A stretch of 64,000 nucleotides of DNA, taken from IMG/VR virus record IMGVR_UViG_3300032024_000295, one strand, 5' to 3'. The stretch comes from a virus. Under the pieces are notes generated by a model that did not search any database, was not told the origin of the DNA, and saw only the letters and a program-made list of their open reading frames with translations. Below are positions 2,781-23,164 of the stretch, in pieces (position 1 is the stretch's first letter; each line of letters begins with the position of its first letter). Both the position numbers and the translations under genes were made by a program.

Positions 2781-3535
2781 AGTCGAGCAAACTCCTTTAG
2801 ACCTGCCTCTATTAATTCTTCTTGACAAGCGAGAATATCTCTATTGCCCATTAAATGTCTATTTAGAATAGCCAATGCATTATTAAAATCTGTTGTATTA
2901 TTTTCCCACGGCTTAAGCGAATTTGCAACATACACTACAATTTCTAATTTTTTAATTTTTAACAAACTCAGAATATGGCTTTTGATATTATGACAGTTTA
3001 TTAATTCTATTTGCTCAATTTTAGAATCACCCAAACCTGATAATTTTTCTAAATTAGGATAGCTTAATCTCAACATAGGAGCTTCAATACTTAAATTGGT
3101 AATTGATTTAGCATAGCTTTGAATACTGCAAATCGATTCAACAGACTCAGGACCGTCAGAAAAGTCGGTAATCCCTGATGCTACTAGATTGAAGTTAGTT
3201 TTAATTCGTTTAGGAAAGTTTTTTAATGATTTTAAAGTGTTAGCATTAAGATTTTCAACATACTGAAAGTGGCCGCCATCAAAATCATCTATCTGAAAAG
3301 GTAATTCTCTATTGTATAATAATGATGCATCGAATTTAGGATGATTACAATTTATTATAGAAATTGAATTAGAATCTTCACTATATTCTGCTGCATTTAA
3401 TCTAACCCGTTGCGAGGTATTAATTGACTTATTGCCCAAAAACACTTTATGCAATAATAGAATATACTTTTCCGGGTCAGTATATTCTTCAGAATCGTGT
3501 ATGCTCTCGTTAATGAATAATTCTCTTACTTTCAT
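2777..3535 (-). CDS. CQEELIEAGL-family protein, LRR-like body
   Basis: Start MKVRELFINE at 3535; LKSLKNFPKRIK..ITDFSDGPE repeats; ends RDILACQEELIEAGLKEFARL. Confidence 0.85.
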   Translation of the reverse strand: MKVRELFINESIHDSEEYTDPEKYILLLHKVFLGNKSINTSQRVRLNAAEYSEDSNSISIINCNHPKFDASLLYNRELPFQIDDFDGGHFQYVENLNANTLKSLKNFPKRIKTNFNLVASGITDFSDGPESVESICSIQSYAKSITNLSIEAPMLRLSYPNLEKLSGLGDSKIEQIELINCHNIKSHILSLLKIKKLEIVVYVANSLKPWENNTTDFNNALAILNRHLMGNRDILACQEELIEAGLKEFARL

Positions 3536-4053
3536 AGTCGTGCGTATTCCTTTAGTCCGGCTTCTATGAGCTCTTCTTGACAAGCCAAGATATCTCTATC
3601 AGATTCAAGATGCTTATTGATTATATCTCTAACTTTGCGATTAAAGTTAAAATGAATACGATCGAGTTTTTTAATTTTTAGAATACCCAACATATGCGAT
3701 TTAATAGGGCATCTGTCAATATCTAAGAATCCATTTATCTCTACCGAATAATCTTTTCCAATGCCTTTCAAATGTTGAATAGGATTGTCATATGCCCAAA
3801 CATTATATCCTACAATCATAGGAGCACCTTCAAGAGATTGAAGTTTATTGGAATTACATCTAAAAGACTGACCAACTTTTGGTGGTGAGTTTTTAAGTGA
3901 CCTCAATTGTATATCGGCACCATCAAAATCGCCATTCACATTCATAAACCGACTTTTAAACTCCCCATCGATTACCCTGAATGGAGGAAATCGAATGTCC
4001 CATGATGGCTCAACTTCTCCTTCATTCTCGTTAAATAATTCTCTTATTTTCAT
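3532..4053 (-). CDS. CQEELIEAGL-family protein, LRR-like body
   Basis: MKIRELFNE; LRSLKNSPPKVGQSFRCNSNKLQSLEGAPMIVG repeat; ends RDILACQEELIEAGLKEYARL. Confidence 0.85.
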   Translation of the reverse strand: MKIRELFNENEGEVEPSWDIRFPPFRVIDGEFKSRFMNVNGDFDGADIQLRSLKNSPPKVGQSFRCNSNKLQSLEGAPMIVGYNVWAYDNPIQHLKGIGKDYSVEINGFLDIDRCPIKSHMLGILKIKKLDRIHFNFNRKVRDIINKHLESDRDILACQEELIEAGLKEYARL

Positions 4054-7080: not shown

Positions 7081-8598
7081 ATGATAAAAGATAAAATAAA
7101 ATTACAACTTTTTGATGCCAAGGGATATGTGTCAGCAGCTAAGCTTCGCAAGATTTCTGAGGAATTAAAATCTGAAATATTGGCATTTGAAATTTCAAAC
7201 ATTGCAAGTAATGCTTCTTTACAAGAAAGAATTCATTGGATTTTAACTGACCGAAAAGATTATCCTAAATGCAAAAACTGTGGGGATAATTGCGTTTCAT
7301 TCAGGTCTATTAATGGTATCGGTTATGAAAGCACTATTTGCTCACGCGCGTGTCAATATGAAATGCGTGCAAAAACTAAAAAGCCAAAAATTATAATATC
7401 TAATGAGCAAAAACTGATTAATGCTGAGGATAGGAAACGTAAGCATATTGCTTCAATACAATCGGCTTTTGGCGTAGATTATCCTATGCAATCTTCAGAT
7501 GTTAGACGGAAAATGCTGAATACCCGATTACGAAATTGGTTTGAAAGACGAATAGAAAGTTGCTCAGCTATTGCTAGCCCATTATTTACCTTTGAGGAAT
7601 ATAAGTATTCTAAATCTTTACACCCCTGGGAATGCAAAACATGTGCCACTATTTTTAATGATACTATTGCAAATGGGTCTAATCCGCGATGTCCTAAATG
7701 TTTTCCTGCTTCGGTATCAAAACCGCAACAAGAAATAATTAACTTCATTCAATCTGAATTGGATGAGACATTGTTAATTAATGACAGACGGATAATTTAT
7801 CCATTGGAATTAGATATAGTTATTCCTTCTAAAAAATTATCTATCGAAGTTAATGGTGTTTATTGGCATTCAGAAAAATCTCAAACGTTTGAAAATAATC
7901 ATTTACAGAAGAAGCAAAAACTCGCAAAAGAAGTTGGATATGATGTTATATTCATTTTGGATAGTGAATGGTATTATCATCAAGAATTAGTTAAATCACG
8001 AATACGCAGCAAGTTAGGAAAATGCAAAACTATAATGGCACGAAAGTGTAATATTAATTTAGTGCCTCACCAAGTTGCTAAAAGCTTTATTCAGAATAAT
8101 CATATTCAAGGCAAAGATAATGCAACAATTTACTTAGGGCTCTATCACACTAATATTCTTATGGCGATAATGAGCTTTGGAAAATCACGATATAACAAAA
8201 ACTTCGAATGGGAATTACTTAGATATTGCACTACGCAAAATTATTCAATAACTGGCGGGGCACAGAAGCTATTGAAATATTTCGAAAATACTTTTTTGCC
8301 AAAATCTATAATTACTTATAGTGATAATAGATGGAATACTGGGAATTTATACAATCACTTAGGTTTCAATTACGATGGTGAAACTGGATTAGGATATTGC
8401 TACGTTGATAATAGAGGAAATATGCATTCACGTCAATCAATGCAGAAACATAAGCTTATGACAAAGCTAGAAAACTATAATAGCGATTTAACAGCCCATC
8501 AAAATCTACAACAACATGGTTATTATAGATTGTGGAATGCAGGGAATAAGCGATGGATTAAAACTTATTCCCTGCATAGCCAAAGATTATTAAGCTAA
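7081..8598 (+). CDS. Hef-like homing endonuclease (PD-(D/E)XK/DUF559-like)
   Basis: PLELDIVIPSKKLSIEVNGVYWHS, ARKC, NHIQG, WELLRYC, GGAQKL, TYSDNRW; CxxC Zn-finger pairs; opposite strand to its neighbours. Confidence 0.75.
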   Translation: MIKDKIKLQLFDAKGYVSAAKLRKISEELKSEILAFEISNIASNASLQERIHWILTDRKDYPKCKNCGDNCVSFRSINGIGYESTICSRACQYEMRAKTKKPKIIISNEQKLINAEDRKRKHIASIQSAFGVDYPMQSSDVRRKMLNTRLRNWFERRIESCSAIASPLFTFEEYKYSKSLHPWECKTCATIFNDTIANGSNPRCPKCFPASVSKPQQEIINFIQSELDETLLINDRRIIYPLELDIVIPSKKLSIEVNGVYWHSEKSQTFENNHLQKKQKLAKEVGYDVIFILDSEWYYHQELVKSRIRSKLGKCKTIMARKCNINLVPHQVAKSFIQNNHIQGKDNATIYLGLYHTNILMAIMSFGKSRYNKNFEWELLRYCTTQNYSITGGAQKLLKYFENTFLPKSIITYSDNRWNTGNLYNHLGFNYDGETGLGYCYVDNRGNMHSRQSMQKHKLMTKLENYNSDLTAHQNLQQHGYYRLWNAGNKRWIKTYSLHSQRLLS

Positions 8599-12297: not shown

Positions 12298-12867
12298 TTA
12301 GCATATTCCTTTACTCGTACCAAATACCATTCCGGCTAATAATTGCTCCACACCTTGCACTTTCAAGAAACCTAGTAGAGGTCCTACATAATTGCCTGAA
12401 AGCGCCACCTGGCCGTTGAGAGTATGGATATGTCTATGCACATTACTAAAGGATACTTGAGGCAATCCTTCAAAATCGGCAGAGCCGTCTATGTGAGGTG
12501 TTATGCCTTCAAGTGATGTAATGTGAAAGTTTTTGAAGAAAGCAGAAATGACGAGAGCGTAGTGGAATTTGCTACCCGACTCCGCCATTCGTGTATCAAC
12601 TCTATCTGGAAAGTTTTTGAATGATTTACAATATTCGGCCATTACCATAAACTGACCAGTATGACCAAACTTGAATGGTAATTCTCCTTCTTCATCTAAC
12701 CAAGGACGTGTGATAACAACTTGACCATTCACATTGGCTTTTCTATCCAATACTTGGACAGAATTCACTTTGATAGTTGTGTTAAGACCTTTAAATTTTA
12801 CCCACGCCTTAAACTCTTTTTGAATACGTTGGTCTGAAATGCTTTCAAACAGCTCTCTTATCTTCAC
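12298..12867 (-). CDS. CQEELIEAGL-family member with C-terminal deletion
   Basis: GTG start (V)KIRELFE; LRR-like ITSLEGITPHIDG; GPLLGFLKV; out-of-frame remnant AAG GAA TAT GCT AAG CTA TAA (KEYAKL*) at the 3' end. Confidence 0.75.
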   Translation of the reverse strand: MKIRELFESISDQRIQKEFKAWVKFKGLNTTIKVNSVQVLDRKANVNGQVVITRPWLDEEGELPFKFGHTGQFMVMAEYCKSFKNFPDRVDTRMAESGSKFHYALVISAFFKNFHITSLEGITPHIDGSADFEGLPQVSFSNVHRHIHTLNGQVALSGNYVGPLLGFLKVQGVEQLLAGMVFGTSKGIC

Positions 12868-13127
12868 AGTTTAGCAAACTCCTTTAGACCCGCATCTATC
12901 AACTCTTCCTGACATTTTAACACATCTTTGTCGCCGCGTATATGATTTTGCACGATTTTGAGCCATGCTTCTTTACTTGACCCATTAAAATGGATGTCTG
13001 TGGTCCTAGCGAGTTGCAATAGACTTAGCACTGGTCCTTTTACACGGTCTGCATAATAGATACCGAGCTGTTTAGCTGTTGGAGTCTCTGCTTCTGTTAG
13101 TAGTAGAAATTGCTTAAAGCTTTGCAT
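12864..13127 (-). CDS. Minimal CQEELIEAGL-family protein (leader plus C-terminal module only)
   Basis: MQSFKQFLLLTE ... KDVLKCQEELIDAGLKEFAKL, 87 aa. Confidence 0.8.
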   Translation of the reverse strand: MQSFKQFLLLTEAETPTAKQLGIYYADRVKGPVLSLLQLARTTDIHFNGSSKEAWLKIVQNHIRGDKDVLKCQEELIDAGLKEFAKL

Positions 13128-13839
13128 GTTGTTTTAATCCTGCGTCTAATAAATCGTCTTGACAACCAAGAAGGTCTTTAGTATTTAGATGTTTTTTAAC
13201 AATTCTCAACCATTGGTCTTTAACAAATCCTGAGTCTAATGATATAAGATTTTTGAGAGACTTAATATTTAGAAGACCTAAGCCACCTGATTCTACTTGG
13301 CCTGCGCCGAATATCAAAATGGTTTGACAATCTAGAAGCTTATCAATACCTAACAATGAGACTTTTCTAGACAAATCACCATTGTAAGAAAGATTGATTT
13401 CAGGCCACTCGATTCTAGTTTTCAATGTCTCATTAATCCAAACTTTTTCTGGATAAGCAGAAACGAAGGCACTACCTAAAGCTTCATGGCAGAATGTAAT
13501 ACTTTCATTGAAAAACTTCTTCAATACATCGTGAGCCCCTTCAGCATCTTTTCTAATCGAATAGTTGAGTTGCACCTCTTCAATTGACATATCATCTGTG
13601 ATGACCTTTGCCTCAATGTTTGGCATCCCTAAATGTTTACGAAGAGCCGATGTTAGCTTCTTCTCAAGATACTCAGGATTCCATCTATAAACCCCCTTGA
13701 AATGACCAGGCTTTAACCAATGATCAGATAGACTCACTTTACTGACAGTGAAAGAGGTTGTGGCTAATGGGTATTTGTAGGTCTGATAATCTTCCCAAGG
13801 TTGAGAGACTTCAGTGATTAGCTCTTCTAGTATATTCAT
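13114..13839 (-). CDS. CQEELIEAGL-family protein
   Basis: True start MNILEEL at 13839 (ATGA overlap); ends KDLLGCQDDLLDAGLKQHAKL. Confidence 0.8.
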   Translation of the reverse strand: MNILEELITEVSQPWEDYQTYKYPLATTSFTVSKVSLSDHWLKPGHFKGVYRWNPEYLEKKLTSALRKHLGMPNIEAKVITDDMSIEEVQLNYSIRKDAEGAHDVLKKFFNESITFCHEALGSAFVSAYPEKVWINETLKTRIEWPEINLSYNGDLSRKVSLLGIDKLLDCQTILIFGAGQVESGGLGLLNIKSLKNLISLDSGFVKDQWLRIVKKHLNTKDLLGCQDDLLDAGLKQHAKL

Positions 13840-17675: not shown

Positions 17676-19181
17676 ATGTCAACAACTATTGAGGCATCAA
17701 CTGCGCAACTTTGGGAAGAAGGCCGTCAAGTCCAATTGACTTTGGCTCGCTCTGCACCAACACCTCTTACTATCAATTGGGTTATTCCGCCAACATCAAC
17801 GCCCTTTAAGGGCTATGTTGTCCTTCTCCATACGTCAATGCTGGAAGCTGCTCAACAACCTACTGACGGTGTTAGATATCTCGCATCATCAAATGCGTCT
17901 ATCCCAGCTGATACCATTGGTGGGGCTCAGGTCATTGCTTCAGCCTATTGGATATTCCAGGACCCACTAACTGCAACTTCTGTAGTAGTCACCAATGTTG
18001 ACCCTAATCTGGTGTATTATGCAAGCATTCATATCTGCTCTAATGTCATTCAATACTATCCATTTGGCGCTAAATCTTATGCATTAGACGGAGCTAGAGT
18101 AGAGCAACACGTTGATGGTTTTACTGGCTCGATTCCACAATCATTAGCACCTCCAACTAATCCTAATATCGGTCAAGTCTATTATAACCCATCAGCAAAT
18201 TCAGTGTCTATGTGGAATGGCGCTGCATGGATGCCAGCTTCTACAACGACCGTTATTACTGGAATGACATTCCCAGTGACGCCTGTTGCAGGCCAATTTT
18301 TCTATCAAACTTCAACACACGTCCTATTCATATGGAATGGCACATCTTGGACACAAGCAAATACTGACCAAATTGGCACACCTTCATATGACAAGACGCC
18401 AATCGGCTCGACTGGGTCTCTCGATGAAAGAGTTAGGTTAGTCAATGACCTAAAAGCCCAATTAGGTTGGCCTGCAGTTTGTGTAGAATTGGATGAGCAG
18501 AATTTTGATGTTGCAATCAACATCGCTCTTGGTGAGTTTAGAAGACGCTCTGATAGTGCATATGAGCATAAACATGTGCTATTCACCATTCTTGAGGGGC
18601 AACCGACTTACTATCTAAATGACCCAGTTGTAGGGACAGACCGAATTGTGGATATTCAAAAAATTCACCGTGTTTCAACCATAGGTTTGAATGTATTAGG
18701 TGGCGATAATGGTATCTATTCTCAAATCTTCTACAATCAATTCTTCTATGGCGCTATGATTGATGTATTGTCTATTCATCTTGCTAACTCAATGGCTGAA
18801 GAGTATGAAAGGATTTTCGCAGGCAATCTAATGTTTGAGTGGAATGAAGCCAAACGTGAATTGAAAATTTTAAGAAAACTCTACAAGCAAGAGAAAGTCG
18901 TATTGGAATGTTATATGGAAAAGACAGAGCAAGAGCTATTGACGGATAGATGGGCTAAACTTTGGATAAGAGATTGGGCTCTTGCTAAATGTTTTGAAAT
19001 GTTAGGAATGTCTCGCACGAAATACGGCTCACTTCCTGGCGCGGGTGGTGGACTAACTTTGAATGGCGACACTTTGCTTCAGAAATCAGAAACTATGTTT
19101 ACTGAATTACAACGACAAATCAATGATTTCGAAGTTGGTAACTTGACTGGAGTAGGCAACTGCGCATTCCTCTGTGGTTAA
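17676..19181 (+). CDS. Neck protein (T4 gp13-like) with N-terminal extension
   Basis: C-half LGWPAVCVELDEQNFDVAI ... WIRDWALAKCFEMLG..RTKY..LPG.GG.LTLNG is typical of gp13. Confidence 0.85.
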   Translation: MSTTIEASTAQLWEEGRQVQLTLARSAPTPLTINWVIPPTSTPFKGYVVLLHTSMLEAAQQPTDGVRYLASSNASIPADTIGGAQVIASAYWIFQDPLTATSVVVTNVDPNLVYYASIHICSNVIQYYPFGAKSYALDGARVEQHVDGFTGSIPQSLAPPTNPNIGQVYYNPSANSVSMWNGAAWMPASTTTVITGMTFPVTPVAGQFFYQTSTHVLFIWNGTSWTQANTDQIGTPSYDKTPIGSTGSLDERVRLVNDLKAQLGWPAVCVELDEQNFDVAINIALGEFRRRSDSAYEHKHVLFTILEGQPTYYLNDPVVGTDRIVDIQKIHRVSTIGLNVLGGDNGIYSQIFYNQFFYGAMIDVLSIHLANSMAEEYERIFAGNLMFEWNEAKRELKILRKLYKQEKVVLECYMEKTEQELLTDRWAKLWIRDWALAKCFEMLGMSRTKYGSLPGAGGGLTLNGDTLLQKSETMFTELQRQINDFEVGNLTGVGNCAFLCG

Positions 19182-19870
19182 TCATTCAATTTCGTAGTAA
19201 ATCCTACAACTCCGGCGAATTCATTACCGGAGTTTCTTTCAGGGACAATCACCCCCACATACGGTCTAAAGTTAGAAGTTAACTTGTAGAAGACGTTGAA
19301 GGTTGTGCCTGACATATTGTTATTGCCAGAGTAATAGTCTGCTAATACGACTACATCTTTGTAGTGATACTTAAATCCTGTTGAGAAGTTATACGGTTGA
19401 TGGATAGTTGCTAAGACATCATTCACATAATATCCGCCAAAGTGAATGTTTAGGTTTTTTGAAACCTGATAGTTGATGTCCATAGTTGCTGTCGCATGGA
19501 GTTGTTGAAGATTATCATTCATATTGGTGCCAATCATTGCGCCTGTCTCAAATTTCAAATCTTCTGAGATATCAAAAGACCGACCTATGTTGATGTAAGT
19601 ATCACTCTCGTAATTCTGTGCTTGCTTACCAGCCAATCTGATATTCGCTGACTGCAGCCCAAATGACCACGATGACCCGTAATACTGCAATGATAAGGTA
19701 TCATATACAGTATTACGGTAAAGGTTAAGCTCACTACCTAGGATGACCTTGTAGAGATGTGTGTCATCTTGCATTCGTTTAGGGCGAATAGCTATCTCAG
19801 CATTTACACTTGCCGATATCAGAATTGCGCAAAAGCCTTTAAGCCGGCGTCTATTAATTCTTCTTGACAT
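19178..19870 (-). CDS. Putative outer-membrane beta-barrel / exported protein
   Basis: Signal-peptide-like N-terminus ending VNA|E; alternating amphipathic strands rich in Y/F/G; start uncertain. Confidence 0.5.
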   Translation of the reverse strand: MSRRINRRRLKGFCAILISASVNAEIAIRPKRMQDDTHLYKVILGSELNLYRNTVYDTLSLQYYGSSWSFGLQSANIRLAGKQAQNYESDTYINIGRSFDISEDLKFETGAMIGTNMNDNLQQLHATATMDINYQVSKNLNIHFGGYYVNDVLATIHQPYNFSTGFKYHYKDVVVLADYYSGNNNMSGTTFNVFYKLTSNFRPYVGVIVPERNSGNEFAGVVGFTTKLND

Positions 19871-19965
19871 TGAAGGATATCTACTTTTTTGGTTGCTAAG
19901 TGCTTATTCATAATATGAGTGGCCGTTTCGCTCACCTGATGTATTAGCAAAAGCGCAAAAGCCAT
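19819..19965 (-). CDS. 48-aa mini-gene consisting of the CQEELIEAGL module
   Basis: Manual translation MAFALLLIHQVSETATHIMNKHLATKKVDILQCQEELIDAGLKAFAQF*; GAAGGAA SD; below the ORF-track cutoff. Confidence 0.6.
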   Translation of the reverse strand: MAFALLLIHQVSETATHIMNKHLATKKVDILQCQEELIDAGLKAFAQF

Positions 19966-20002
19966 CGTTGTTAATTCCTTCTATATGGTCAGAGAATTAA
20001 AA

Positions 20003-20260
20003 CTACTGGACGATAAACTCAGGTTTAATTGGAGCGTCCATATTAGCAGGTTTGCCTTCCATAATCTTATTTGCAGGCACCGCAATTTCAGGTTTATCGA
20101 TAGCATCAGAAGGAATAGAATCTTCTGCTGGCAACATACCATCAGACTTCATTACTAATGCTGCGCCTGCTACTCTACGCTCAGGTTGAGTAATTTGTGG
20201 TGTAGCAAATAGCAATTGACTTACTGACAGCAGTGTTAGTATAGCATACATTTTTTTCAT
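20003..20260 (-). CDS. Small exported protein
   Basis: Sec signal MKKMYAILTLLSVSQLLFA. Confidence 0.6.
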   Translation of the reverse strand: MKKMYAILTLLSVSQLLFATPQITQPERRVAGAALVMKSDGMLPAEDSIPSDAIDKPEIAVPANKIMEGKPANMDAPIKPEFIVQ

Positions 20261-20279
20261 GTGTGTAATCTCCGTAGTT

Positions 20280-20801
20280 TTATTCAGGTAGAATTGTTAG
20301 TATCGTACCGTCTGGCACAGTATTTAAAACAGTGTAAAAGAAATCAGAATCAACATTAATACAACCCTGAGTTATTCGATTGTCATCAGCAGTGGAGCTT
20401 CGTAACCGTTGAATTCGACGCTGGTCTTTATTACCTTTCCAAACGGGATGAATGGCCAAAATTGTCGACTTACCTTCAATGAATGCAAGCACATGCTCAT
20501 TCAATCGCCAGCTCACCATCTTGGTAACTGGAAAAGAGCCGGATGGCGTTATACCAGTGAATTTGCCAGGAATGTCAAAACTGCTCAAGTCTACAGTATT
20601 TGTTTTAACTTTTCCGAATAATGCAGGCTGAGTAATGGTCTGATTTGTTGCAGGGAAATAAACTGATATTGTCCCATTGACTTTATCAGCTGTAATTGTT
20701 GGCTTCTGCTCATCTGCTTTCTTAGTCTCTTCAATTATAGCGAAATCACTAGCAGAACTTTTAAAAGCAACAAGGATTAAAAGAAGAGTTAATAGCTTCA
20801 T
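20280..20801 (-). CDS. L,D-transpeptidase (YkuD-like) family exported protein
   Basis: Signal peptide; AIHPVW...RITQGCINV resembles the His/Cys LDT catalytic motif. Confidence 0.6.
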   Translation of the reverse strand: MKLLTLLLILVAFKSSASDFAIIEETKKADEQKPTITADKVNGTISVYFPATNQTITQPALFGKVKTNTVDLSSFDIPGKFTGITPSGSFPVTKMVSWRLNEHVLAFIEGKSTILAIHPVWKGNKDQRRIQRLRSSTADDNRITQGCINVDSDFFYTVLNTVPDGTILTILPE

Positions 20802-20810
20802 ACGCGCTAA

Positions 20811-21344
20811 TTATTTTGGTTGGTCAATTTGGTTATCAGTCATTTCACAAGTAAATTTTTTGGTTTTCTTATCGTAATCCGCATCTCGAACATCCATCTT
20901 ATTCACATATCCAGATGGTGGTAGTGCTACTGCAGTCTCATCAAAACTCCAAATAGTTTGCGTCATTTTGCCAACTCTCAACACTCGATTTCCAAAAATT
21001 AAGAATTCGAACGGCTGTGAAGTTTCAAAATTGAAGTCCATTAGACGCCAATCAATTTTGACACATTTGGGATCGGCGGTGCGATTAGTTGCAGTAACTT
21101 TCCACACATCCAATACAACACCTTCTCTACCTTTGATAGGTAAAAGCTTATCGACTTCGACGACTATACCGTCATTATCAGCAACCTTAACATAATCAGG
21201 CGTTGGTTGTAACTTTGTGGCCTGCGCCGCTTTAATACGAAGAGCTTGTTCGCGATCCATTTTACCCGTATCGTAGTTGCGAACGGTTGCTGAACAACCT
21301 ACAAGCATCATTAATATTGGTACTATAAAAATATTTTTATACAT
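20811..21344 (-). CDS. Lipoprotein
   Basis: Lipobox LVG|C after a hydrophobic stretch. Confidence 0.65.
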   Translation of the reverse strand: MYKNIFIVPILMMLVGCSATVRNYDTGKMDREQALRIKAAQATKLQPTPDYVKVADNDGIVVEVDKLLPIKGREGVVLDVWKVTATNRTADPKCVKIDWRLMDFNFETSQPFEFLIFGNRVLRVGKMTQTIWSFDETAVALPPSGYVNKMDVRDADYDKKTKKFTCEMTDNQIDQPK

Positions 21345-21375
21345 AAATTACTCCGCTTTTCTAACATCTTAAACA

Positions 21376-21413
21376 GATAAAGCCGGTATCATTTGCTGAT
21401 TACCGGCTTTATC
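21376..21413. terminator. Intrinsic terminator-like hairpin
   Basis: 13-bp stem GATAAAGCCGGTA/TACCGGCTTTATC after the 21442 ORF stop. Confidence 0.6.
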
Positions 21414-21441
21414 ATTTCTCTCGTACGATCGAGTAGTTAGT

Positions 21442-22032
21442 TTAGAACCCTTTAGCTCTCATAGAAGCTGCAGATTTTTCCGCTTCGTCTAACATCATTT
21501 GAGTTTGTTTTGCCATTTCGTCAGACTCGTCACCGACTTTTTTATCAGTTGCAGGCTCAGCAACTACAGGAGCGGCGACTGGTGCAACAGCGACAGGAGC
21601 GGCTACAGTGTAGATACCACCATCGTCAGCGCATGGGCGACCAACTTTCTTGAATGCTTCACGAACGGTGTCGTTAGAGCACATGATCTCTTTAGCGGCT
21701 TGTACGTCGCCGTATGTACGAATTTCACGAGCATTCAGACGATTAACGCACTCGGTATCTCTCCATGTAGTACCGAAGCTGAAAGAACCACCAGAGAAAC
21801 CAGCACCGGCAGAAGTAGAACCCATACAGGTTTCAGTCAAAGTAGTAGTTAAAGCGGGAGCAGCAGCGAAACCAACAGATTTAGACAAGTCTGAACCAAT
21901 TGCAACACTTTGATTTCTGGCATCAACTGAAGTTGTAGCATTTACGCCTAAATCAACAGCTTGAGTTGTATCAACAGCAAAAGCTGTACTAGTTGCAAGA
22001 GCTAGCATCAATGTAAAAAATATTTGTTTCAT
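21442..22032 (-). CDS. Exported Cys-containing phage protein
   Basis: Signal peptide STAFA|V; TC.GS.S.G.G.SGG..SFGTTW.D.EC..RL.A motif recalled from many phage envelope proteins. Confidence 0.6.
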   Translation of the reverse strand: MKQIFFTLMLALATSTAFAVDTTQAVDLGVNATTSVDARNQSVAIGSDLSKSVGFAAAPALTTTLTETCMGSTSAGAGFSGGSFSFGTTWRDTECVNRLNAREIRTYGDVQAAKEIMCSNDTVREAFKKVGRPCADDGGIYTVAAPVAVAPVAAPVVAEPATDKKVGDESDEMAKQTQMMLDEAEKSAASMRAKGF

Positions 22033-22110
22033 AATTATATTCCTCTGCTTTGTAAATAAAAAATTAAAATTAAGGGACTATTTCTAGTCCCTTAAAATAA
22101 CGACTAAAAA

Positions 22111-22545
22111 TTAGTGGCTAGAGTGTCCACCATTACCGGAAGTAATTACAGTTACTGGAATTGGAAAGTTAGTGATAGTGGTGTGAGCCGCTACACCAAC
22201 AATAGCTGAAGCTGGGTGACCAGCAACAGTCCAAGAAGGTAACACAAAACCATTACCGGATGGTTTTGAACTTGCATTGCCAGTGATAGAAGAAGTAATT
22301 ACTGGAGCAACAATGCTTGAACCGGAACGTTCGCCATATGATTGGCGGCCTTGTGAAACAGTAGTATAGCTAGTTACGGAACCAACAGAAATTTGAGTTT
22401 CGTGTTGGCCTGGAGCTGCACCAATGTAAGTACCAACATCGATAGAACCATTCAAAACGGTTGTTACGGTTGGAACTGGTTGAGTTGCAAATGCTGCGCC
22501 AGAAACTAAAGATGCTACTGCGATTGCTAGAATTGAAGTTTTCAT
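22111..22545 (-). CDS. Exported protein
   Basis: Signal peptide MKTSILAIAVASLVSGAAFA. Confidence 0.6.
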   Translation of the reverse strand: MKTSILAIAVASLVSGAAFATQPVPTVTTVLNGSIDVGTYIGAAPGQHETQISVGSVTSYTTVSQGRQSYGERSGSSIVAPVITSSITGNASSKPSGNGFVLPSWTVAGHPASAIVGVAAHTTITNFPIPVTVITSGNGGHSSH

Positions 22546-22873: not shown

Positions 22874-23164
22874 ATTATACACTAATTTTCAGTAGATGTA
22901 AATTTAAATTTGAATTTGAATTTGAATTTGAATTTGAATTTGAATTTGAATTTGCGGGGTAAACTTGTTTTCGTTTTTAAGATGGAAATATCTCTAAACG
23001 TTGAAGATATTATACTCCATCTTCACTCTAGTGTAAACAACTTTTTTACGGTGGTTTTTACTAGAAATTTTGTAGCGCAACTTCATTTCATAAGAGTGTT
23101 GTGCATCAATGCTTGCTCTCTTGAAAGTATGAAGCTATTATAGACTATGGTTGTGGGATGTAAA
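22874..23164 (-). promoter_or_regulatory. Three tandem sigma70-like early promoters (TTTACA-16/17-TATAAT)
   Basis: -35/-10 pairs at 22897-22902/22874-22879, 23032-23037/23009-23014 and 23159-23164/23137-23142. Confidence 0.7.
22907..22954. repeat. Hexanucleotide microsatellite (AATTTG)8
   Basis: Eight perfect copies directly upstream of the -35 box at 22897-22902. Confidence 0.95.

What the first reader, a model, noticed from the sequence alone, without database searches (positions are those of the whole stretch)
19790..19965. Orphan tail-module mini-gene whose alternate frame supplies the signal peptide of a beta-barrel gene
Seen: a 48-aa ORF of module only (19819-19965) overlaps the start of 19178-19870. 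The shifted frame of the module DNA reads MSRRINRRRLKG, followed by FCAILISASVNA|E. This is a basic n-region, hydrophobic h-region and signal peptidase site, and I see no other ATG that could start it. In the other arrays the same MSRR frame is a meaningless extension. Inference: a repeat fragment either became a secretion signal by overprinting or disrupted the original start.
Basis: partly seen in the sequence, partly recalled or inferred. Interest (0 to 1): 0.65.

Follow-up and report, generated by a model that had tools for sequence, protein, structure and literature searches.

The report
Porin start overprinted on gene stump
In a giant phage that probably infects methane-oxidising bacteria, an outer-membrane barrel gene takes its start codon and the first two thirds of its export signal from the shifted frame of a 48-codon stump of the upstream gene; related phages show a similar overlap, so it is a tidy variant of a known phage gene layout.

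Summary
A 48-aa ORF (19819-19965, minus strand) holds only the conserved tail of a ~10-copy paralog family. The 230-aa ORF 19178-19870 starts at an ATG in the tail's -1 frame. It reads MSRRINRRRLKGFCAIL from tail DNA, then ISASVNA|E from its own DNA. No other start could give a signal peptide.

The product models as a 12-strand KdgM/NanC-like outer-membrane barrel. Its cellular homologs are nearly all in Methylococcaceae.

The interpretation needs correcting. The mini-gene is not an inserted orphan. Syntenic relatives (L024, L025, L065) carry a full-length 212-229-aa family gene at that position, so the window keeps its 3' stump. In those relatives the barrel also starts inside the tail (MQT[L/S]KILLIC...), but in the +1 frame with a 32-nt overlap (ATG to stop). 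More distant homologs have free-standing signal peptides, many of the MKK type.

The chimeric N-terminus has charge, hydrophobicity and a -3/-1 site within the range of the homologs' signals. Its Shine-Dalgarno is weak (-1.8 kcal/mol), as in the relatives (-1.6). The mini-ORF has a normal one (-5.7).

Most likely (about 0.6) the start is used and the stump persists because it carries that start. The main rival is that re-phasing killed or crippled expression. The closest known layout is the overlapped spanin gene pair. Interest is moderate to low. The scan had noted neighbouring features of this genome before.

The parts
19819..19965 (-). 48-codon mini-ORF. It is the 3' stump of a family gene (C-terminal cap module) and has its own ATG and Shine-Dalgarno.
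   Evidence: ORF. Aligns to the family tail. Ortholog of the last ~50 codons of the 229-aa and 212-aa genes of L024 and L025: 66% identity over 29 aa, with a shared Q before the Cys and a shared extra residue. SD -5.7 kcal/mol, close to the gene median of -5.55.
19966..20002 (-). Spacer holding the mini-ORF's GAAGGAA Shine-Dalgarno and an in-frame TAG 6 codons upstream of its ATG. This is the deletion boundary of the former full-length gene.
   Evidence: The DNA here still aligns with internal coding sequence (..RGLQGISF..) of the L025 gene.
19819..19870 (-). 52-nt overlap. Frame 0 reads CQEELIDAGLKAFAQF*. The -1 frame reads MSRRINRRRLKGFCAIL (start codon, n-region, first half of h-region).
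19799..19870 (-). Putative 24-residue Sec signal peptide, MSRRINRRRLKGFCAILISASVNA, with cleavage before E25.
   Evidence: Net charge +6. The uncharged run is 13 residues. Mean Kyte-Doolittle is 2.43 over 10 residues; homologs with a signal peptide score 1.8-2.8 and other window ORFs have a median of 0.89. V at -3 and A at -1. The cleavage site aligns with that of homologs.
19178..19870 (-). 230-aa outer-membrane beta-barrel gene with 12 strands.
   Evidence: AF2 pLDDT 80.5 with 12 strands. Foldseek hits KdgM, NanC, VhGalP, OmpG and OMPLA at E about 1e-5. All 35 columns invariant across the 15-sequence family alignment, which includes the window protein, are shared by it.
20003..20260 (-). Upstream 85-aa exported protein. 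It is the ortholog of the 106-aa gene that precedes the full-length family gene in L024.
17676..19181 (+). Convergent head-tail adaptor gene whose stop overlaps the barrel's stop by 4 nt. It served as the synteny anchor.
   Evidence: phrog_211. 73% identity to L024, with the same 4-nt convergent overlap there.
22874..23164 (-). Three sigma-70-like promoters (11 of 12 matches each) upstream of the envelope-protein gene cluster that ends with the barrel.
   Evidence: These are consensus matches only.

Best explanation
The 48-codon ORF is the stump of a full-length LRR-type paralog gene. That gene sits, in related phages, between a small exported protein and a host-derived 12-strand outer-membrane barrel gene.

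In this phage group the barrel gene has no free-standing 5' end. Its start codon and the first part of its signal peptide lie out of frame inside the last codons of the upstream gene's conserved tail.

In the window the overlap is 52 nt in the -1 frame. The Glu/Leu-rich tail codons (QEELIDAGLKAFAQF), read one base early, give an Arg-rich n-region and a hydrophobic GFCAIL. This joins the barrel's own ISASVNA|E to form a Sec-type signal peptide.

The body of the upstream gene was deleted. The tail survived because it carries the barrel's start. The stump keeps a good Shine-Dalgarno and an ATG, so ribosomes still traverse the weakly marked barrel start.

Shown: the anatomy, the synteny, the orthology of the stump, the overlapped start in relatives, the barrel fold, and the signal-like composition.

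Inferred: that ATG 19870 is used, that the peptide is exported by Sec and cleaved after VNA, that the barrel is inserted in the outer membrane, and that coupling to the mini-ORF helps initiation.
For: 1. L024 shows the same gene order as the window, with a 229-aa family gene in place of the mini-ORF. L025 and L065 carry a 212-aa gene there.
2. Tail identity is 66% with lineage-specific shared features, and DNA homology runs from upstream of the mini ATG to the stop.
3. In all three relatives the barrel ORF starts inside the tail (ATG 32 nt before the stop, +1 frame) and reads MQT(L/S)KILLICSSISIC.A.
4. The window barrel and the L024-type barrels fall in one phage clade with 100/100 support.
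5. The chimeric N-terminus has signal-peptide features within the range of 13 database homologs and 5 neighbouring exported proteins. Starts at CTG or at M33 do not.
6. The barrel is full length and shares all 35 invariant columns of the family alignment. It folds as a 12-strand barrel.
7. Only 2 of 10 tail copies offer an ATG plus an open -1 frame.
8. The barrel start has an equally weak SD in the relatives (-1.6 against -1.8 kcal/mol), so a weak SD is the norm for this gene.
Against: There is no expression data.

The SD at ATG 19870 is no better than at a random ATG of the window (background median -2.2).

The frame of the overlap differs between the window (-1) and the relatives (+1). At least one re-phasing event therefore hit the signal-coding region, and the ORF could be intact only because that event is recent.

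No second genome with the window's arrangement was found, so purifying selection on the -1 frame cannot be measured.

SignalP was not available. My scoring is a simple composition test.

The tail's last residues deviate from the family consensus (E/Q/D to A, R/K to Q). This fits either dual-coding compromise or decay.
Confidence: 0.6

Rival explanations
1. Recombination scar with a dead or crippled gene. The deletion or re-phasing that truncated the upstream gene also destroyed the barrel's former start, which was in the +1 frame as in the relatives. The open -1 frame with an ATG is luck. The barrel is not made, or is made at trace level, and has not yet decayed.
For: The frame of the overlap differs from L024, L025 and L065. 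The window's +1 frame is closed by TAA and TAG inside the tail. The SD at 19870 is at background level. The tail's own SD and ATGA coupling site has decayed to AAGGCT..CTGA. The arrangement occurs in a single genome.
Against: The 693-nt barrel ORF in AT-rich DNA is intact and shares all 35 invariant family columns. The new N-terminus is not merely open: it has charge, hydrophobic length and a cleavage site like real signals. The relatives' accepted start has an equally weak SD. By my estimate, the chance of ATG, open frame and right phase together is below about 10%.
Confidence: 0.28
2. A mobile or duplicated tail fragment inserted in front of a barrel gene that previously had an ordinary MKK start, and replaced it.
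For: More distant phage and bacterial homologs have free-standing MKK-type signal peptides. The tail is a dispersed repeat with about 10 copies.
Against: Syntenic relatives have a full-length family gene at exactly this place, and the barrel start is already inside its tail. The mini-ORF shares lineage-specific features with that gene. The homology extends upstream of its ATG into former internal coding sequence. That points to deletion of a resident gene, not insertion of a fragment.
Confidence: 0.06
3. Artefact or recoding. Either an assembly or indel error lies at a repeat, or the barrel is made as a fusion by -1 ribosomal slippage from the mini-ORF at the A-run ACC AAA AAA GTA (around 19885-19896).
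For: Repeats invite misassembly. The -1 frame is open from the A-run to the ATG. The contig is a metagenome assembly.
Against: The tail copy here is at most 83% identical to any other copy in the window, so there is no long exact repeat to misjoin. The synteny with L024 is collinear on both sides. The tail's stop is at the family's normal position. The A-run is not in the X XXY YYZ phase and is absent from the other copies and the relatives. A fusion would bury the signal behind about 33 extra residues.
Confidence: 0.04

Closest known systems
Overlapped two-component spanin genes (P2 lysB/lysC, T5; lambda Rz/Rz1 as the embedded extreme), PMC6139136
   Same: In both cases the downstream phage gene for an outer-membrane-targeted protein starts inside the 3' part of the upstream gene, out of frame, and runs past its end. 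Its N-terminal export signal is therefore encoded by shifted codons of the upstream gene. Both +1 and -1 registers occur, and families switch between overlapped and separated layouts. Here too, relatives use +1, the window uses -1, and distant homologs are separate.
   Different: The downstream product is a 12-strand barrel with an SPase I-type signal, not a lipoprotein, and no lipobox is present. There is no sign of a lysis cassette or of an interaction between the two products. The upstream partner is a dispersed paralog-family tail, and in the window it is reduced to a 48-codon stump.
KdgM/NanC family of small 12-strand outer-membrane channels
   Same: The AF2 model has 12 antiparallel strands. 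The best structural matches are KdgM (4pr7, 4fqe), NanC (2wjq) and VhGalP (8xua), with TM 0.56-0.65 normalised to the query and 0.66-0.77 to the target.
   Different: Sequence identity is only 11-17%, and there is no Pfam or NCBIfam hit. The family is restricted to Methylococcaceae and their presumed phages. The window protein ends in KLND rather than an aromatic residue.
Translational coupling by ATGA/GTGA stop-start overlaps in phage gene arrays
   Same: In the window's arrays the tail's L-K-E codons give AAGGAG, and its stop overlaps the next ATG. The mini-ORF may likewise feed ribosomes to the barrel start.
   Different: Here the coupling site has decayed (AAGGCT, CTGA). The start lies 49 nt upstream of the stop, so classic termination-reinitiation would need backward movement.

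Membership tests
Sec-type (signal peptidase I) signal peptide | Positively charged n-region after the initiator Met | tested here: met
   MSRRINRRRLK has a net charge of +6. This is higher than in the homologs (0 to +2).
Sec-type (signal peptidase I) signal peptide | Hydrophobic h-region of about 7-15 residues | tested here: met
   GFCAILISASV lies in an uncharged run of 13 residues. Mean Kyte-Doolittle is 2.61 over 8 residues and 2.43 over 10. Homologs with a signal peptide score 1.8-2.8 over 10 residues, and other window ORFs have a median of 0.89.
Sec-type (signal peptidase I) signal peptide | Small or neutral residues at -3 and -1 of the cleavage site | tested here: met
   V-N-A|E. The site aligns with the ..A|N cleavage region of homologs.
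Sec-type (signal peptidase I) signal peptide | Export and cleavage demonstrated, or called by a trained predictor (SignalP) | not testable with these tools
   No predictor or experiment was available.
KdgM/NanC-like 12-strand OM barrel | 12 antiparallel transmembrane strands closing a barrel | tested here: met
   DSSP on the AF2 model gives 12 strands between residues 41 and 227. The barrel body has pLDDT mostly 74-96.
KdgM/NanC-like 12-strand OM barrel | Sequence membership (Pfam KdgM family or an NCBIfam model) | tested here: not met
   No family at E <= 0.1 in Pfam and none at E <= 1 in NCBIfam. The likeness is of fold only.
KdgM/NanC-like 12-strand OM barrel | C-terminal beta-signal ending in an aromatic residue | tested here: not met
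   The window protein ends ..GFTTKLND and its nearest relatives end ..KLN. Other members end ..K(I/V/L/M)F.
Overlapped phage gene pair of the spanin type | Downstream ORF starts out of frame inside the upstream ORF and extends beyond it | tested here: met
   52-nt overlap in the -1 frame in the window. 32-nt overlap (ATG to stop) in the +1 frame in L024, L025 and L065.
Overlapped phage gene pair of the spanin type | Downstream product is an OM lipoprotein (lipobox with Cys) and the upstream product is an inner-membrane protein | tested here: not met
   No [LVI][ASTVI][GAS]C lipobox: the residue before Cys is F. The upstream protein is a soluble LRR-type protein with no TMD. This is not a spanin pair.
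Window's LRR-plus-tail paralog family | Conserved C-terminal tail ..HL..(R)DIL.CQEELI.AGLK.FA.L* | tested here: met
   The 48-aa ORF has D29, Q34, L37, A40, G41, K43 and A46 of the family.
Window's LRR-plus-tail paralog family | N-terminal MKxRELF leader and a repeat solenoid body | tested here: not met
   Both are absent from the 48-aa ORF. AF2 of a full member shows the tail as the last strand plus three helices capping the solenoid. The mini-ORF is a fragment of a member.

The most novel reading that the evidence does not exclude
The conserved tail of this phage paralog family may be a multi-use cassette. Frame 0 encodes a structural cap and a Shine-Dalgarno for the next gene. Its shifted frames, which intrinsically read as Arg-rich and then hydrophobic, have been recruited at least twice, in two different frames, as the start and export signal of a host-derived outer-membrane channel. 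After loss of the upstream gene's body, the 48-codon stump is kept by selection purely as a leader ORF that carries and serves the channel's start. That would be a gene remnant preserved by the overprinted gene.
Probability: 0.4. Interest if true: 0.5.

Novelty: new variant of a known kind. Interest (0 to 1): 0.35.

Why it matters
If the shifted-frame start is used, this is a clean natural example of how easily an export signal can be rebuilt from unrelated coding DNA. The same tail has supplied the signal's front end in two frames in two lineages. It would also show how an overlapping gene can keep an otherwise dead gene stump alive.

It has a practical side as well. Gene callers and annotators would either miss the signal peptide or dismiss the mini-ORF. 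Correct starts matter for predicting which phage proteins reach the host envelope.

The barrel itself is an uncharacterised envelope protein shared between Methylococcaceae and their presumed phages. It sits in a six-gene cluster of exported proteins that may remodel the host envelope during infection.

None of this overturns existing knowledge. Overlapped phage genes with out-of-frame export signals are well documented for spanins.

Tried and rejected
- **Phage GenBank collection.** No DNA or protein match for the locus or the barrel. The tail sheath places the phage only distantly (about 50% identity) near the RsoM2USA, XacN1 and Rak2-like jumbo phages.
- **Protein family libraries.** Pfam, PHROGs and NCBIfam gave nothing for the barrel or the mini-ORF.
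- **Stand-alone 48-aa relatives.** A full phmmer scan of 1.84 billion representatives found only the window's own protein. The tail otherwise appears at the C-terminus of 206-591-aa proteins. Sensitivity is limited for so short a query.
- **Contigs of the closest barrels (P0002, P0003, P0005, P0009).** Their upstream context is therefore unknown.
- **Exact junction search in viral contigs.** No match.
- **Whole genome.** None is held for this window.
- **Tat signal.** Rejected. SRRINRRRLK does not fit S/T-R-R-x-F-L-K. The peptide is short with a strongly hydrophobic h-region, and barrels travel unfolded by Sec.
- **Lipoprotein.** Rejected, as there is no lipobox.
- **Xenologous replacement of the barrel.** I considered this as the reason for only 34% identity to L024. 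The tree puts the L024-type inside the same phage subclade on a very long branch, and other cluster genes are also only 34-57% identical. Fast divergence is enough to explain it.
- **Local RNA structure around ATG 19870.** Unremarkable: mean unpaired probability 0.51 against 0.52 for the whole segment.
- **Substitution bookkeeping in the 52-nt overlap.** Some changes are silent in one frame and some in the other. There are too few sites to show dual-coding selection.

Full report
**1. What is in the sequence**

On the minus strand a 48-aa ORF (19819-19965) overlaps by 52 nt the start of a 230-aa ORF (19178-19870).

The 48-aa ORF matches only the conserved C-terminal tail of a paralog family. 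That family has about ten copies in the window, found as repeat families D1 and D2 and confirmed by protein and DNA alignments. Full members begin with MK(I/V/L)RELF and have a variable body. They end in ..HL..RDIL.CQEELIEAGLK.(Y/F)A(R/K)L*.

The 230-aa ORF starts at an ATG formed by the codon pair CAA TGT (Q-C) read one base early. This -1 frame gives MSRRINRRRLKGFCAIL up to the tail's stop codon. It then continues with ISASVNA|EIAIRPK from DNA that is not tail.

**2. The claims about starts**

ATG 19870 is the first start codon of its frame. The next in-frame ATG is codon 33, beyond the cleavage site. The CTG at the place where other arrays have their ATGA overlap would leave only MISASVNA before the cleavage site. 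Neither alternative has signal-peptide features.

In three other copies (2787, 3542, 13846) the same -1 frame is open and reads (L/M)SRR... into the downstream gene. Those genes' conserved N-termini start at the ATGA overlap. That overlap lies 10-11 nt behind the AAGGAG or AAGGAA encoded by the tail's L-K-E codons, except at 13839, where no good SD is present. So the 'meaningless extension' is confirmed.

The Arg-rich reading xSRRxNRxRxKGxC is an intrinsic property of the -1 frame of the Glu/Leu-rich tail and is seen in most copies. Only 2 of 10 copies combine an ATG with an open -1 frame.

**3. What the downstream gene is**

AlphaFold2 on a 15-sequence alignment gives a 12-strand barrel, with mean pLDDT 80.5 and low confidence only in residues 1-36.

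Foldseek against the PDB returns outer-membrane barrels only. The best are KdgM, NanC and VhGalP (12 strands), followed by OmpG and OMPLA.

There is no Pfam, PHROG or NCBIfam match.

Sequence homologs fall into two groups:
- A phage clade at 45-57% identity. Two members could be inspected and lie on T4-like contigs next to gp32- and UvsX-like genes.
- A bacterial clade. All but one of the 16 genome hits are Methylococcaceae or Methylococcales: Methylobacter, Methylomonas and Methylovulum.

In the isolate Methylovulum miyakonense HT12 the gene follows ffh-rpsP-rimM-trmD-rplS. It is therefore a chromosomal gene, and the phage copies are host-derived.

The window itself is part of a jumbo myophage. 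It has a tail sheath about 50% identical to the RsoM2USA and XacN1 group and carries 14 tRNAs. Its host is probably a methanotroph of that family; this is an inference.

**4. N-termini of homologs**

Nearly all full-length homologs have ordinary free-standing signal peptides. Examples are MKKIIAILFLFSTKVIA|N and MKTAIALLCLLSTKAFA|N, and bacterial ones are followed by AKGKGK...

**5. The decisive comparison**

I searched viral contigs with the convergent adaptor gene (17676-19181) and found L065. The metagenome scan with the barrel alignment had already brought in L024 and L025.

L024 has exactly the window's gene order:
1. exported protein (57% identity)
2. lipoprotein (46%)
3. YkuD-like protein (55%)
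4. small exported protein (34%)
5. a full-length 229-aa family gene ending ..HLSKSKRDILQCQEDLIDADFKDFANM*
6. the barrel (34%)
7. the convergent adaptor (73%), with the same 4-nt stop overlap

L025 and L065 are similar, with a 212-aa family gene.

The window's mini-ORF is the ortholog of the last ~50 codons of that gene:
- 66% identity over 29 aa.
- A shared Q before the Cys, not seen in any other window copy.
- A shared extra residue before DIL.
- DNA homology that runs from upstream of the mini-ORF's ATG (former internal codons ..RGLQGISF..) to the stop.

The mini-gene is therefore a 5'-deleted resident gene, not an inserted orphan.

**6. The overlapped start is shared**

In L024, L025 and L065 the barrel ORF also begins inside the tail, at ATG 32 nt before the stop. 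It reads MQT(L/S)KILLICSSISIC(Y/C)A, so its n-region and most of its h-region are encoded by shifted tail codons. The register there is +1.

In the window the +1 frame is closed by TAA and TAG, and the -1 frame is used. At least one re-phasing event therefore separates the lineages.

A maximum-likelihood tree puts the window barrel and the L024-type barrels in one phage clade (100/100). The L024-type sits on a very long branch within the subclade that holds the window. This fits orthology with fast divergence rather than replacement.

**7. Is the chimeric signal plausible?**

- Net charge is +6.
- The uncharged run is 13 residues.
- Mean hydropathy is 2.43 over 10 residues. Database homologs with a signal peptide score 1.8-2.8, neighbouring exported proteins 2.1-3.3, and other window ORFs have a median of 0.89.
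- V is at -3 and A at -1.
- The cleavage site aligns with the family's.

A trained predictor was not available.

The Shine-Dalgarno at 19870 is weak: -1.8 kcal/mol, against a gene median of -5.55 and a random-ATG median of -2.2. The undisputed start in the relatives is equally weak at -1.6.

The mini-ORF has a normal SD (-5.7). Local RNA structure is unremarkable.

**8. The tail as protein**

AF2 of a full member (3532-4053) shows an LRR-like solenoid. The tail provides its last strand plus three helices, a C-terminal cap with pLDDT above 90.

A 48-aa cap without a body is unlikely to keep the parent's function. An 87-aa body-less member does exist at 12864-13127.

A full scan of 1.84 billion representative proteins found no other stand-alone 48-aa form.

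**9. Explanation and rivals**

Best explanation (0.6): the overlapped start is the normal design in this phage group. The body of the upstream gene was deleted. The tail persisted because it carries the barrel's start and the front of its signal. The stump's own translation helps ribosomes reach a weakly marked start.

Main rival (0.28): the re-phasing killed or crippled expression, and the ORF is intact only because the event is recent.

Insertion of a fragment (0.06) and artefact or frameshift fusion (0.04) are poorly supported.

**10. Comparison with what is known**

The closest known layout is the overlapped two-component spanin gene pair. There the o-spanin's signal is encoded in the +1 or -1 frame of the i-spanin's 3' end, and families switch between overlapped and separated forms (PMC6139136).

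The present pair is not a spanin. It has no lipobox, no TMD partner and no lysis context. I file it as a new variant of a known kind.

**11. Limits**

- There is one genome only for the -1 arrangement.
- There are no expression data.
- No reads were available to check the assembly.

Noticed in passing
window 19178-22545; L024 90-3645: The cluster of exported proteins is syntenic with relatives L024, L025 and L065 from other metagenomes. The cluster comprises two Sec proteins, a lipoprotein, a YkuD-like L,D-transpeptidase, a small exported protein and the barrel. In L025 and L065 the order of the lipoprotein and the YkuD gene is swapped, and the small exported gene is missing.
   Followed up: partly
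L025 3668-4831 and 240-1100; L065 1216-2379 and 4947-5807; window 7081-8598: L025 and L065 carry two extra genes (387 aa and 286 aa). The 387-aa one sits between the barrel and the adaptor and resembles the window's 505-aa ORF at 7081-8598 (shared ..ELDI..P...L.IE..G.YWHS.. motif). They look like homing-endonuclease-type insertions, and both are absent from L024 and from this locus of the window.
   Followed up: no
L049-L064 (genome contigs); L056 2899-3615: The barrel family's cellular members are almost confined to Methylococcaceae. In Methylovulum miyakonense HT12 the gene lies directly after ffh-rpsP-rimM-trmD-rplS. The bacterial proteins carry a Lys/Gly-rich stretch (AKGKGKAKIK) right after the signal peptide, which the phage copies lack. 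This points to a methanotroph host for the phage.
   Followed up: partly
window 12864-13127 (-): An 87-aa 'body-less' family member, MQSFKQFLLLTE... plus the tail. Its start overlaps the previous tail's HAKL* codons, and it is followed by a GTGA overlap into the next gene.
   Followed up: partly
P0017 (591 aa): In another metagenomic phage, a gene call begins with MPGRTYRSRIKRICEV. This is the same shifted-frame reading of a preceding tail. The call then runs through two family members joined in frame (..IECQEELIESGYSKYARLSRPTKK..). So the open shifted frame and its miscalled extensions are a general trait of this family.
   Followed up: no
window 3532-4053 (-), model me0ffe33251e1: AF2 predicts the paralog family as a short LRR-like solenoid capped by the conserved tail (last strand plus three helices, pLDDT above 90). 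The N-terminal MKIRELF leader is disordered in the model.
   Followed up: partly
window 22070-22095 (-): A terminator-like hairpin (11 pairs followed by a T-run) sits right after the first gene of the envelope cluster (22111-22545). The five downstream genes, including the barrel, may therefore be expressed at a lower level, or from read-through.
   Followed up: no
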